Shown piece after piece: positions 35,488-37,140 of a stretch of DNA of 64,000 nt. Source of the stretch: the human T2T-CHM13v2.0 reference genome, Homo sapiens; the NCBI GenBank assembly GCA_009914755.4, contig CP068257.2:24736001-24800000 (forward strand), in the 5' to 3' direction. Under the pieces are notes generated by a model that did no database searches, had not been told where the DNA came from, and saw only the letters and a program-made list of their open reading frames with translations. Position numbers and translations under genes: made by a program. The number at the start of each line of letters is the position of its first letter. Within the stretch, counting starts at the first letter, position 1.

Positions 35488-36380
35488 TTAAGAATTTCAG
35501 GGTTTTGAACTAGAGGTCTATGAATTCTGACCACATACTGGCCATTTTTTTTTTATGGGAAAGTTCTTTAAAGTTCAGTTTCCTTAACTCTAGAATGAAC
35601 CTAAAAATACCTTTCTCAGAGCTTTATTCGAACAAGAAAATGAGATGATATATAAACAACTCTTAAAACATTGCCTGTTTTAAAATAAGTTTAAATATTT
35701 ATTTAAAAAGTAAATCCTCAGTCAATAAAGGAAATTTGCCTCTATTAATGTTCCTTTACTACAACACATATCTGATTAGTTATTGATATGGGTTGGCTGT
35801 GTTCCCACCCAAATCTCATCTTGAACTGTAGTTCCCATAATCCCCACATGTGGTGGGAGGGACCCGGTGGGAGGTAATTAACTCATGGGGGTGATTACTT
35901 CCATGCTGTTCTCGTGATAGTGAGTTCTCATGAGATCTGATGGTTGTATAATGAACTTTTCCCCTTTTGCTTGGCACTTCTCCTTGCTGCTGCCATGTGA
36001 CGAAAAGGTATTTGCTTCCCCTTCCACCATGATTGTAAGTTTCCTGAGGCCTCCTCAGCCCTGTGGAACTGTGAGTTAATTAAAACTCTTTTCTTTATAA
36101 ATTATCCAGTCTCAGGCAGTTCTTTATAGCAGCGTGAGAATGGACTAGTACAGTTATTTTACTTTGTTGATTATAATCCTAAAATAACTTTTCAGAGCAC
36201 CCAAAATAAGTTTAGACTCCTCACTGCAGCTTCCATGAACTTCATAATCTGGCTACCTCTGGTTTCATCTACTTAACCACCCTCATGTGCCATCTCTTCA
36301 CCAGACACGTGGGAAAACTGTGGTTTCCTAAATGCCCTGTTGTATCCTCAGAGTACCCGCATTGTTGTCACCTCTATCTA
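35488..36380. repeat. Left arm of a large inverted repeat (about 520 bp of arm sequence, interrupted by the THE1 LTR at 35784-36152)
   Basis: 35488-35783 plus 36154-36380 is the reverse complement of 36660-37140 at roughly 80-85% identity. Example: ctgaccacatactggccattttttttttatgggaaagttctttaaagttcagtttccttaactctagaatgaacctaa versus the reverse complement of ttaggttcattctagagttaaggaaattgaagtttagagaactttcccataaaaactatggccagcgtgtgctcataattcacag. Confidence 0.85.
35784..36152 (+). mobile_element. Solo MaLR THE1-class LTR inserted into the left arm of the inverted repeat
   Basis: tgatatgggttggctgtgttcccacccaaatctcatcttgaactgtagttcccataatccccacatgtggtgggagggacccggtgggaggtaattaactcatggggg...aaattatccagtctcaggcagttctttatagcagcgtgagaatggactagtacag. 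The right arm of the inverted repeat has no such insert. Confidence 0.9.
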
Positions 36381-36659
36381 GAATGTCTTTCTCCTTTTTA
36401 GAAGATTCCTATTCATTCTTTAAAACTCAGCTCAAACCTCAAAAGCTCCTAGATAATGATCACTTTCGCCGCAGTCTCATTCAGAGGCTCTTCCACGTGG
36501 ATGGGAATAATACCTTTGGTGTACCCCCATCCACATAGTGCTACATTGAAGCTTTCTCGGATTGTTCTATTAGTGTTTTTTGGCTTCACTGTATCCCCTT
36601 GCCCTACAATCTAGTGCCATAAACTCCATAGGTACAAGAACTTCATCTGTGTCTTCACC

Positions 36660-37140
36660 TCTTCAGATGCCTGACATGCATGCAATGTGGATAAGCTGAG
36701 GATACAACAGGTTGTTCAGCAAACCACAATTGTCTCATGTGTCTGGTGAAGAGAAGGCATGTGAGGGTGGTTAAGTAGATGAAACCAAAGGTAGGCAGAA
36801 GCCAGTTTATGAAGTTCATGGAAGCTACAATGAGGAATCTGAACATATTTTGGGTGCTCTAAAAAGTAATTTTAGGATTATAATCAACAAAGTAAAATAA
36901 TTAATAGAAGGGTTTCTTTATTTATTGAAGATTTATTTATTTTAAAAACAAATGGCAATGTTTTAGGAGTTACTTATATAGCATCTCATTTAATTCTTCT
37001 AACAAACCTTTAAGAAAAATATTATTAGGTTCATTCTAGAGTTAAGGAAATTGAAGTTTAGAGAACTTTCCCATAAAAACTATGGCCAGCGTGTGCTCAT
37101 AATTCACAGACCCCTAGTTTAAAATCTCAAAATTCTTAAT
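36660..37140. repeat. Right arm of the large inverted repeat (partner of 35488-36380), separated from it by an unrelated spacer of about 280 bp
   Basis: See the left-arm entry. The arms meet around cctgttgtatcctcag (left, about 36365-36380) and ctgaggatacaacagg (right, about 36660-36676). Confidence 0.85.

What the first reader, a model, noticed from the sequence alone, without database searches (positions are those of the whole stretch)
35488..37140. Old interrupted palindrome: arms of about 500 bp in inverted orientation around a spacer of about 280 bp, with a THE1 solo LTR later inserted into only one arm
Read directly, 35488-35783 plus 36154-36380 is the reverse complement of 36660-37140 at roughly 80-85% identity. 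The spacer 36381-36659 is unrelated. The THE1 LTR at 35784-36152 sits in the left arm only, so the inverted duplication predates that insertion. Arms this long are atypical for simple MITE-like DNA transposons and are not part of any repeat consensus I recognise. The structure could be an ancient inverted segmental duplication, a long-TIR non-autonomous DNA transposon (hAT or Tc/mariner class), or a hairpin-forming element. Once transcribed, long palindromes can form cruciforms or dsRNA.
Basis: seen in the sequence. Interest (0 to 1): 0.5.

Follow-up and report, generated by a model that had tools for sequence, protein, structure and literature searches.

The report
Old inverted duplication of MIR/L2 junk
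A 0.5-kb stretch of already-decayed ancient repeats (a MIR SINE nested in an L2 LINE) was copied in inverted orientation about when THE1 retroelements were active, leaving an ordinary, neutrally decaying palindrome and not a new transposon.

Summary
Arms 35487-35783 + 36158-36364 and 36683-37140 are reverse complements (84-85% identity, about 500 bp). They lie around a 318-bp spacer. A 369-bp THE1-type solo LTR with a 5-bp target duplication (GTTAT) sits in the left arm only.

The arms are not a transposon's terminal repeats. Each arm is a MIR SINE followed by LINE-2 (L2) sequence. Both repeats are about one-third diverged from consensus, yet the arms share most of those differences. The right arm is still in its original context, because the MIR 5' end and then the L2 continue beyond its outer border. 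The spacer continues the same L2, but in the orientation of the left arm. Joining right flank, arm and spacer in silico restores one colinear L2 (E 1.4e-14).

So this is a local inverted segmental duplication coupled to inversion of the spacer. Arm divergence (K2P 0.19) equals that of two THE1 provirus LTR pairs in the same window (0.15-0.19). That dates the event to the THE1 era and indicates neutral decay.

There are no target-site duplications, no other copies and no Rfam match. It is an ordinary member of a known kind of rearrangement scar, and interest is low.

The parts
35380..35486 (.). Left flank (P): pyrimidine-rich, low-complexity sequence not homologous to the right flank or to the spacer. 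The junction 35486/35487 is a true rearrangement breakpoint.
   Evidence: no significant similarity of 34400-35486 to the reverse complement of 37141-38200 (z 0.06) or to the spacer in either orientation; no L2 match in 35100-35486. A weak (TGAA)n-like remnant at 35411-35425 on the minus strand (13/15, z 2.1) is only a hint that an L2 tail may lie here.
35487..35783 (+). Left arm, outer part. It holds a MIR SINE from consensus position about 18 to its end (35488 to about 35748), then the first about 35 nt of the L2 segment (L2 about 421-455, 35749-35783).
   Evidence: arm alignment; nhmmer MIR 70-226 = 35531-35678, E 1.2e-4. MIR 18-259 = 35488-35703, z 9.9, 0/300 shuffles. L2 restarts at position 421 at 35749, z 5.8, 0/500.
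35784..36152 (+). THE1-type (MaLR) solo LTR of 369 bp, inserted into the left arm after the duplication. Its 5-bp target-site duplication GTTAT lies at 35779-35783 and 36153-36157.
   Evidence: TG...CA ends and a perfect TSD; 7-8 homologous LTR copies in the window; 8.7% from the consensus of the window's own copies. It is absent from the right arm.
36158..36364 (+). Left arm, inner part: L2 3'-region sequence in sense orientation (about position 456-675 in my 1053-nt numbering). It carries a private 7-nt deletion at about 36247.
   Evidence: The arm-to-arm identity here is 88% (K2P 0.133).
36365..36682 (+). Spacer, single copy. It continues the same L2 (about position 676-1010) in the orientation of the LEFT arm, so it is inverted relative to the L2 pieces on the right.
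   Evidence: In-register continuation across 36364/36365; the reconstructed element gives one nhmmer hit that runs 31 nt into the spacer; appending spacer(+) to an arm adds 4.4 bits, while its reverse complement adds 0. Colinear block tests: z 3.3 (5/500) and z 2.2 (10/500). For the right two-thirds of the spacer the support is only moderate.
36683..37140 (-). Right arm: L2 (about 675 down to 445) then MIR, both antisense on the + strand. It carries a private 31-nt deletion (the equivalent of 35753-35783) and indels in the MIR tail.
   Evidence: L2 match z 5.5, 0/300. L2 505-637 = 36842-36714. MIR 92-223 = 37073-36954, E 1.2e-3; z 10.7.
37141..37507 (-). Right flank, the ancestral context of the right arm. 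The MIR 5' end (about position 3-17) continues for about 10-15 nt beyond the arm border. The L2 into which the MIR is nested then follows (L2 about 15-410).
   Evidence: L2 7-424 = 37507-37139, E 5.8e-7; the MIR alignment reaches 37150; the best junction models have L2 ending at 408-415 and MIR starting at 3-9 (score 18.5-19.5), against 9-11 for a MIR that starts at the arm border.

Best explanation
This is the scar of a local DNA rearrangement in a primate ancestor. It is not a mobile element and shows no sign of function.

Inferred ancestral state: an old, already decayed L2 LINE lay on the minus strand with a MIR SINE nested in it. Reading left to right on the + strand, the order was flank P, L2 3' part, [L2 about 675-421 + MIR], L2 about 410-15.

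The event:
- It produced a second, inverted copy of the roughly 0.5-kb block [MIR position about 18 to end + L2 421-675] next to P.
- It left the 318-bp L2 3' part between the two copies in inverted orientation.
- The present order is P | MIR-L2(+) | L2 3' part(+) | L2-MIR(-) | MIR 5' end + L2 5' part(-).

The simplest one-step mechanism is inversion of the 318-bp segment by breakage and rejoining. One of the two breaks would be staggered by about 0.5 kb, with the overhang filled in. This is the model proposed for inverted duplications at Drosophila inversion breakpoints, where only one breakpoint may be duplicated.

An equivalent two-step route is fold-back or template-switch copying of the block, followed by one arm-to-arm recombination that flips the spacer.

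A THE1 retroelement later inserted into the left arm and collapsed to a solo LTR. Both arms have since decayed independently at the neutral rate.

What is shown:
- the composition of the arms;
- the continuity of the right arm with its flank;
- the continuity of the left arm with the spacer;
- the relative age.

What is inferred:
- the ancestral arrangement, because no outgroup sequence was available;
- the molecular mechanism.

The confidence of 0.85 applies to the nature of the structure (a local inverted segmental duplication of MIR/L2-bearing DNA with an inverted spacer, neither mobile nor functional). My confidence in the one-step staggered-break route specifically, over the two-step route, is only about 0.5.
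For: 1. The arms are MIR + L2.
- nhmmer and Smith-Waterman matches to both consensuses were found in both arms. Left-arm MIR z 9.9 and right-arm MIR z 10.7.
- The same typed consensuses hit other loci in the window at 185 bits (L2) and 41 bits (MIR). They therefore represent real repeat families.

2. The arms are duplicates of decayed sequence.
- In three-way columns against consensus, 63/200 (MIR) and 69/199 (L2) sites are shared departures.
- Only 9-15 sites per region are private to one arm.
- Arm-arm alignment scores are 84 and 151.5, against 8-26 for independent copies.

3. The right arm is in ancestral context.
- L2 7-424 abuts its outer border (E 5.8e-7).
- The MIR 5' end crosses that border.

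4. The left arm and spacer form a contiguous L2. Joining rc(37141-37507) + the L2 part of the left arm + the spacer gives one hit, L2 15-706, 46.9 bits, E 1.4e-14. The separate pieces score 21.7 and 13.4 bits.

5. The flanks are unrelated to each other.

6. Age and neutrality.
- Arm K2P is 0.187, against 0.185 and 0.154 for two THE1 provirus LTR pairs in the same window.
- Each arm has private deletions whose ancestral state is given by the L2 consensus.

7. Published precedent.
- Inverted duplications at one or both inversion breakpoints have a median of 321 bp, reach up to 1.9 kb and are about 88% identical (PMC1885836).
- Small inversions and inverted duplications arise from processed double-strand-break ends (bioRxiv 10.1101/2024.12.14.628481).
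- Template switching between inverted repeat arms can invert the spacer (PMC8604942).
Against: - Dfam and RepeatMasker were not available.
- The L2 assignment of the right two-thirds of the spacer is only moderately significant (z 2.2-3.3). nhmmer on the spacer alone reported nothing.
- No orthologous sequence from another species could be obtained. The ancestral arrangement and the date are therefore inferred.
- The last roughly 40 nt of the L2 (position about 1016-1053) were not located convincingly.
- The one-step and two-step routes cannot be told apart from the present sequence.
- The L2/MIR junction in the right flank has two possible parses. The better-scoring parse puts the breakpoint inside the MIR.
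Confidence: 0.85

Rival explanations
1. A much older palindrome. On this reading the inverted duplication arose near the time of MIR/L2 activity (over 100 Myr ago). Arm-to-arm gene conversion then kept the arms alike until roughly the THE1 era, when they began to diverge.
For: Palindrome arms are known to be homogenised by gene conversion (PMC8981503 and PMC8600007). The inner arm halves are more alike (K2P 0.133) than the outer halves (0.213). That could reflect conversion near the centre, although the difference is not significant (25/207 against 42/228 mismatches).
Against: Documented long-term homogenisation concerns arms of many kilobases at over 99% identity, not 0.5-kb arms. Shared departures from consensus are spread evenly over both repeat types, as expected from simple late duplication. 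Arm divergence equals that of THE1 LTR pairs without any extra assumption. This rival changes only the date, not the nature of the structure.
Confidence: 0.07
2. A non-autonomous DNA transposon with about 500-bp terminal inverted repeats (hAT, Tc1/mariner or piggyBac class).
For: The arm edges are sharp on the left. The outermost bases ATTAA...TTAAT include a TTAA on each side. Because TTAA is palindromic, this is formally compatible with a piggyBac-type target duplication.
Against: - The arms consist of a MIR and an L2 fragment.
- MIR and L2 continue across the right border into the flank, so that border is not an element terminus.
- The flanks TGTACTGAA and CACTATTCT share no direct repeat of 2-10 bp.
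- The termini GAATTT...AAATTC lack the CCC...GGG of piggyBac and the CAG-type ends of hAT and Tigger elements (motifs recalled from my own knowledge).
- There is no second copy in 64 kb.
- A 25-mer shared by both arms has no hit in a metagenome collection that holds at least 120 human MaLR-bearing contigs.
Confidence: 0.02
3. Two independent insertions of common repeats (MIR and L2) that happen to lie head to head.
For: A repeat annotation would label both arms MIR and L2 in opposite orientations.
Against: - The arm identity of 84-88% is far above that of independent copies in the same window, which match in patches of about 70% with scores of 8-26 against 84-151.
- About one-third of sites are shared departures from consensus.
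- Both arms have the identical nested MIR-in-L2 architecture and the same inner end point.
- An L2 piece lacking its 3' end (the right arm) cannot be a primary LINE insertion. This rests on established knowledge of 5'-truncated LINE integration.
Confidence: 0.01
4. An assembly or cloning artefact, such as a fold-back chimera.
For: Fold-back artefacts do create inverted duplications in some sequencing libraries (my own knowledge).
Against: Artefacts give near-identical arms. Here the arms differ at 16% of sites, carry private indels, and one arm holds an old LTR insertion with its own target duplication.
Confidence: 0.01

Closest known systems
Inverted duplications at inversion breakpoints, from the staggered-break model (Ranz et al. 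2007, PLoS Biol, PMC1885836)
   Same: Ancestrally single-copy sequence is present twice in inverted orientation flanking an inverted segment. [quoted passage not shown] Sizes of 46 bp to 1.9 kb (median 321 bp) and a mean identity of about 88% match this case.
   Different: Those inversions span many genes and were verified with outgroup species. Here the inverted segment is only 318 bp, the organism is a primate, and no outgroup could be checked. The duplicated sequence here is decayed repeat rather than genes.
Fold-back or template-switch inverted duplications (L1-induced double-strand-break remodelling, bioRxiv 10.1101/2024.12.14.628481; replication template switching, PMC10710096, PMC8794818, PMC8604942)
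   Same: These mechanisms create a reverse-complement copy next to the source with a single-copy loop. Template switching between arms can invert the spacer.
   Different: Described template-switch events are mostly tens of bases long. A simple fold-back predicts a spacer contiguous with the original (right) arm. Here the spacer is contiguous with the derived (left) arm, so an extra flip is needed.
Hairpins formed by oppositely oriented L2 or MIR copies that gave rise to microRNAs (L2-derived miRNAs: Petri et al. 2019, PMC6433296; Smalheiser & Torvik 2005, recalled from memory)
   Same: Inverted L2/MIR sequence is able to fold into a long RNA hairpin (-368.5 kcal/mol, z -19.8 for 36154-36900).
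   Different: There is no Rfam match at any threshold tried. The stem is about 210-500 bp rather than a roughly 70-nt precursor. There is no evidence of transcription or conservation.
Large sex-chromosome palindromes maintained by gene conversion (PMC8981503, PMC8327919)
   Same: Two inverted arms lie around a unique spacer.
   Different: Those have arms of many kilobases at over 99% identity, carry genes and are preserved by selection. Here the arms are 0.5 kb, 84% identical, gene-free and decaying at the neutral rate.
MITEs and long-TIR non-autonomous DNA transposons
   Same: The overall geometry of inverted ends around a core.
   Different: There is no target-site duplication, no family-specific termini and no other copies. 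The arms are built from a SINE and a LINE fragment, and one end is continuous with its flank.

Membership tests
Class II DNA transposon with long terminal inverted repeats (hAT, Tc1/mariner, piggyBac) | A target-site duplication of family-specific length directly flanking both ends | tested here: not met
   The flanks ...TGTACTGAA | arm ... arm | CACTATTCT... share no direct repeat. The TTAA inside the arm ends is palindromic and cannot be told apart from the inverted repeat itself.
Class II DNA transposon with long terminal inverted repeats (hAT, Tc1/mariner, piggyBac) | Element ends are discrete, so the flanking DNA is unrelated to the element on both sides | tested here: not met
   MIR positions about 3-17 and then L2 15-410 continue across the right border. 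The reconstructed L2 is colinear through that join.
Class II DNA transposon with long terminal inverted repeats (hAT, Tc1/mariner, piggyBac) | Multiple dispersed copies in the genome | tested here: inconclusive
   There is none in the 64-kb window. A 25-mer shared by the arms has 0 hits in metagenome and GTDB contigs, while a MaLR control 22-mer found at least 120 human-derived contigs. A whole-genome search was not possible.
Class II DNA transposon with long terminal inverted repeats (hAT, Tc1/mariner, piggyBac) | Terminal sequence motifs and arm sequence specific to the family | tested here: not met
   The arms are MIR + L2. The ends read (A)TTAAGAATTT. The comparison with known terminal motifs rests on my memory only.
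Inverted segmental duplication coupled to an inversion (breakpoint duplication) | Two copies of a non-mobile genomic segment in inverted orientation, more alike than unrelated copies of the repeats they contain | tested here: met
   84.7% identity over about 450 aligned nt. Shared departures from consensus are 63/200 and 69/199. Independent copies match only in patches of about 70%.
Inverted segmental duplication coupled to an inversion (breakpoint duplication) | One copy remains colinear with its ancestral flank, while the other abuts unrelated DNA | tested here: met
   The right arm is colinear with flanking MIR/L2. The left arm abuts unrelated P.
Inverted segmental duplication coupled to an inversion (breakpoint duplication) | The segment between the copies is inverted relative to the ancestral order | tested here: met
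   The spacer continues the L2 in the + orientation, opposite to the L2 of the right arm and flank. Support is moderate for the distal spacer. The ancestral order is inferred from the L2 consensus, not from an outgroup.
Inverted segmental duplication coupled to an inversion (breakpoint duplication) | Outgroup species show the single-copy, uninverted arrangement | not testable with these tools
   No primate or mammalian genome was accessible. The protein-based routes returned nothing.
THE1 (ERVL-MaLR) solo LTR | About 350-370 bp, TG...CA termini, a 5-bp target-site duplication, homology to other THE1 LTRs, and no adjoining internal region | tested here: met
369 bp, TG...CA, GTTAT/GTTAT. It is 74-84% identical to 7 other LTRs in the window, four of which bound two proviruses of about 2.3 kb. 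The subfamily was not assigned.
MIR SINE and L2 LINE fragments | Significant colinear similarity to the family consensus | tested here: met
   MIR z 9.9 and 10.7, with E 1.2e-4 and 1.2e-3. The reconstructed L2 gives E 1.4e-14.
Structured RNA gene or miRNA precursor | A match to a curated RNA family, or conservation of pairing | tested here: not met
   Rfam returned nothing at gathering score across the window. In the 34000-39000 search at E<=1 it returned nothing within the arms or spacer, only three sub-threshold matches in the upstream flank (34395-35457). Arm differences include 30 transversions and 60 gap columns. Expression could not be tested.

The most novel reading that the evidence does not exclude
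The inverted duplication may have created a primate-specific long hairpin RNA locus. If the region is transcribed, for example within an intron or a lncRNA, the arms would form an imperfect dsRNA of about 210 bp for the inner halves (up to about 450 bp overall). That dsRNA could be A-to-I edited or diced into small RNAs. This would be an example of a new dsRNA source born from inverted duplication of L2/MIR sequence, rather than from two independent insertions.
Probability: 0.04. Interest if true: 0.35.

Novelty: new member of a known kind. Interest (0 to 1): 0.1.

Why it matters
It matters little in itself. It is a tidy example of how a small inversion or inverted duplication can be reconstructed from a single genome, by using decayed interspersed repeats (a MIR nested in an L2) as a coordinate system.

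It also shows that a head-to-head MIR/L2 annotation can hide a true segmental duplication.

Such scars document double-strand-break or replication errors in the anthropoid germ line. They are raw material for hairpin RNAs. This one, however, shows neutral decay and no sign of function.

Tried and rejected
1. Protein-space route to other copies. A 63-aa arm ORF searched against the 5.8-billion-protein collection found nothing. Human non-coding ORFs are evidently not represented, so this route was abandoned.

2. DNA scans of metagenome and GTDB contigs with a 25-mer shared by both arms gave 0 hits. A control MaLR 22-mer showed that human DNA is present in the metagenome set. The null is therefore only a weak argument against a high-copy family.

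3. A profile HMM built from the window's own few L2 copies performed worse than the single consensus. Direct copy-to-copy alignments of the arms with other L2 copies were not significant, as expected for very old repeats.

4. The short L2 3'-end consensus alone gave only marginal hits. Extending the recalled consensus upstream was what exposed the flanking L2.

5. Twin-priming (5'-inverted LINE insertion) and 3'-transduction or retrocopy models were considered and rejected.
- The order and orientation of the segments do not fit.
- There is no poly(A) at 36682 and there are no target duplications.
- The source's own 3' part is not found left of 35487.
- The arms are far too similar to date from L2 activity.

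6. I first read the outer breakpoint as coinciding exactly with a truncated MIR 5' end, which was a puzzling coincidence. Softer gap penalties and a junction scan show that the MIR continues beyond the border, so the breakpoint lies inside the MIR.

7. A possible 7-nt TACTTGT repeat near both outer edges, and a 39-column similarity between 35450-35483 and 37248-37286, were both not significant (z 1.5).

8. The search for the missing L2 tail in the left flank was inconclusive.

9. Rfam gave no match at either threshold.
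Full report

Yes. The repeat finder on 34500-38200 returns four colinear inverted blocks: 35487-35552/37075-37140, 35550-35675/36954-37079, 36154-36254/36800-36900 and 36248-36364/36683-36799. They are 80-92% complementary.

After removing 35784-36157, a gapped local alignment pairs 35487-36364 with the reverse complement of 36683-37140. It has 511 columns, 382 matches and 60 gap columns, which is 84.7% identity over ungapped columns. A global alignment gives p-distance 0.164 and K2P 0.187.

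The insertion at 35784-36152 begins TG and ends CA. It is flanked by a perfect GTTAT/GTTAT 5-bp duplication (35779-35783 and 36153-36157) and resembles at least seven other LTRs in the window at 74-84%. Four of those LTRs bound two proviruses of about 2.3 kb. It entered one arm after the arms existed.

**2. What are the arms made of?**

No repeat library was available.

Both are validated inside the window. The L2 sequence hits 47477-46815(-) and 52936-53814(+) at about 185 bits each. The MIR sequence hits 33525-33665 at 41.5 bits. They therefore represent genuine interspersed families.

Against the finding:
- MIR 70-226 matches 35531-35678(+) with E 1.2e-4, and MIR 92-223 matches 37073-36954(-) with E 1.2e-3. 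Both E-values are for the whole window.
- With softer gap costs, the left arm matches MIR 18-259 (z 9.9, 0/300 shuffles). The right arm plus a few flanking bases matches MIR 7-249 (z 10.7).
- With the LTR removed, the left arm aligns to L2 from position 421 at 35749 onward (z 5.8, 0/500).
- The right arm aligns to L2 at z 5.5.

Each arm is therefore a MIR followed by about 250 nt of L2, both in the same orientation.

**3. Duplicates or independent insertions?**

They are duplicates. In three-way columns against consensus, both arms share the same departure at 63 of 200 MIR sites and 69 of 199 L2 sites. Only 9-15 sites per region are private to one arm.

Independent MIR or L2 copies in this window align with each other, or with the arms, only in short patches of about 70% (scores 8-26). 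The arm-arm scores are 84 (MIR part) and 151.5 (L2 part).

The arms were therefore copied from one another after the MIR and L2 had accumulated roughly four-fifths of their present decay.

**4. Context and reconstruction**

Immediately beyond the right arm, L2 positions 7-424 match 37507-37139 on the minus strand (E 5.8e-7). The MIR alignment also crosses the arm border to 37150.

A scan of junction models favours L2 ending at about 408-415 and MIR starting at about 3-9 (scores 18.5-19.5). A MIR that starts at the arm border scores only 9-11.

So the right arm sits in its original setting, a near full-length MIR nested in an L2. The duplication breakpoint lies inside the MIR at about position 17/18. 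The left arm abuts unrelated pyrimidine-rich DNA, and the two flanks show no similarity to each other or to the spacer.

The L2 alignment of the left arm runs in register across 36364/36365 into the spacer. The right arm's L2 stops at its inner border. Appending the spacer in + orientation to an arm raises the nhmmer score by 4.4 bits, while its reverse complement adds nothing.

I then concatenated rc(37141-37507), the L2 part of the left arm (35753-35783 + 36158-36364) and the spacer. This yields a single nhmmer hit, L2 15-706, 46.9 bits, E 1.4e-14. It passes through both joins, whereas the separate pieces score 21.7 and 13.4 bits.

Further into the spacer, colinear L2 blocks reach about position 1010 at 36676, but with only moderate significance (z 3.3 at 5/500, and z 2.2 at 10/500). 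The last roughly 40 nt of the L2 were not located. A (TGAA)n-like remnant at 35411-35425(-) is at best a hint.

**5. Model**

The present order is:

P | MIR(18-end)-L2(421-675) (+) | L2(676 to about 1010) (+) | L2(675-445)-MIR (-) | MIR(5' end)-L2(about 410-15) (-)

The inferred ancestral order is P | L2 3' part (-) | L2-MIR (-) | L2 5' part (-), which is one L2 with a nested MIR.

One event, or two, inverted the 318-bp 3' part and left the adjoining 0.5-kb block on both sides of it in inverted orientation.

This is the footprint expected from an inversion in which one break is staggered and filled in. Ranz et al. describe this model, and note that in 12 inversions only one breakpoint region carries the duplication. 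Their duplications have a median of 321 bp, reach up to 1.9 kb and are about 88% identical (PMC1885836).

A fold-back or self-annealing copy at a resected break is a second route. Such small inversions and inverted duplications are seen experimentally after L1-induced breaks (bioRxiv 10.1101/2024.12.14.628481). A spacer flip between the arms would then have to follow (compare PMC8604942). This route gives the same end product, and I cannot distinguish the two.

**6. Age and selection**

Two THE1 proviruses in the same window provide an internal clock, because their LTR pairs were identical at insertion. Their K2P distances are 0.185 and 0.154. The palindrome arms are at 0.187, and the LTR in the arm is 8.7% from the window's own LTR consensus.

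The duplication therefore dates to about the period of THE1 activity. That is consistent with the LTR being in one arm only.

Each arm has private deletions, and the L2 consensus gives their ancestral state. They are a 31-nt deletion in the right arm, a 7-nt deletion in the left arm, and indels in the MIR tail. Divergence at the pace of neutral LTR pairs, the private indels and the tolerated LTR insertion all argue against constraint.

A long-homogenised older palindrome cannot be excluded without outgroups. Known gene-conversion-maintained palindromes have much longer arms at over 99% identity (PMC8981503).

**7. Could it do anything?**

As RNA, 36154-36900 would fold into a stem of about 210 bp around the spacer (-368.5 kcal/mol, z -19.8). 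This is the trivial consequence of the inverted repeat.

Rfam has no family match at gathering thresholds across the window. In the 34000-39000 search at E<=1 it has no match within the arms or spacer, only three sub-threshold matches in the upstream flank. L2-derived hairpins are a known source of miRNAs (PMC6433296). A hairpin-RNA role is therefore conceivable, but it is unsupported and untestable here.

**8. Transposon hypothesis**

It is rejected, for these reasons:
- There is no target-site duplication.
- The termini are not those of known families.
- The arms are built of a SINE and a LINE fragment.
- One border is continuous with its flank.
- There is no other copy in the window.
- There is no hit to a shared 25-mer in collections where a MaLR control found at least 120 human-derived contigs.

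**9. Verdict**

The long-TIR transposon is wrong. The arms are recognisable repeats after all.

This is an ordinary, neutrally decaying rearrangement scar of a known kind, and interest is low.

The main caveats are that the consensus sequences came from memory, validated only internally, and that no outgroup sequence was available.

Noticed in passing
window 4419-6746 (+) and 41119-43379 (-): Two apparently full-length THE1-type proviruses of about 2.3 kb, each with both LTRs. The LTR pairs have K2P 0.185 and 0.154. I used them as an internal clock. ORFs of 130 and 166 aa lie in their internal regions (5401-5793 and 42276-42776).
   Followed up: partly
window 14685-15055 (-), 19229-19589 (-), 21997-22380 (+), 20778-21035 (-): Further THE1/MaLR-like LTR copies or fragments at 67-77% identity to the LTR in the arm. 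The window is unusually rich in this family, with at least 8 LTRs in 64 kb.
   Followed up: no
window 35753-35783 versus the right arm near 36897-36900: The 31-nt segment that the right arm has lost ends only 4 nt from the THE1 target site in the left arm. The deletion end points share ATTA(A/G)T microhomology. This is probably coincidence.
   Followed up: partly
window 34555-35025: Three weak L2(+) pieces lie just left of the structure: 34555-34736 (L2 about 210-414), 34746-34847 (L2 922-1024, E 8e-9) and 34905-35025 (L2 924-1048). An (AC)21 microsatellite at 34844-34886 sits between them. They are not recent copies of the right flank, and their relation to the rearranged L2 is unknown.
   Followed up: partly
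window 34395-34510 (+): A sub-threshold match to metazoan SRP RNA (29 bits against a gathering score of 70). This is most likely an Alu-type or 7SL-derived monomer fragment.
   Followed up: no
window 45987-47477 (-), 52936-53814 (+), 39-360 (+): Well-preserved L2 3' regions, up to 185 bits against the recalled consensus. MIR copies lie at 33525-33665, 33971-34091, 27046-27213 (-) and 39408-39570 (-). These are useful as internal references.
   Followed up: partly
loci L001-L080 (metagenome contigs): At least 120 contigs in the public metagenome collection carry an exact primate MaLR LTR 22-mer. Several are labelled human oral metagenome. This shows human host DNA contamination in that collection.
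   Followed up: no
window 36158-36364 versus 35487-35718: The inner (L2) halves of the arms are more alike (K2P 0.133) than the outer (MIR) halves (0.213). The difference is not significant (25/207 against 42/228 mismatches). It could reflect composition or past gene conversion near the palindrome centre.
   Followed up: partly
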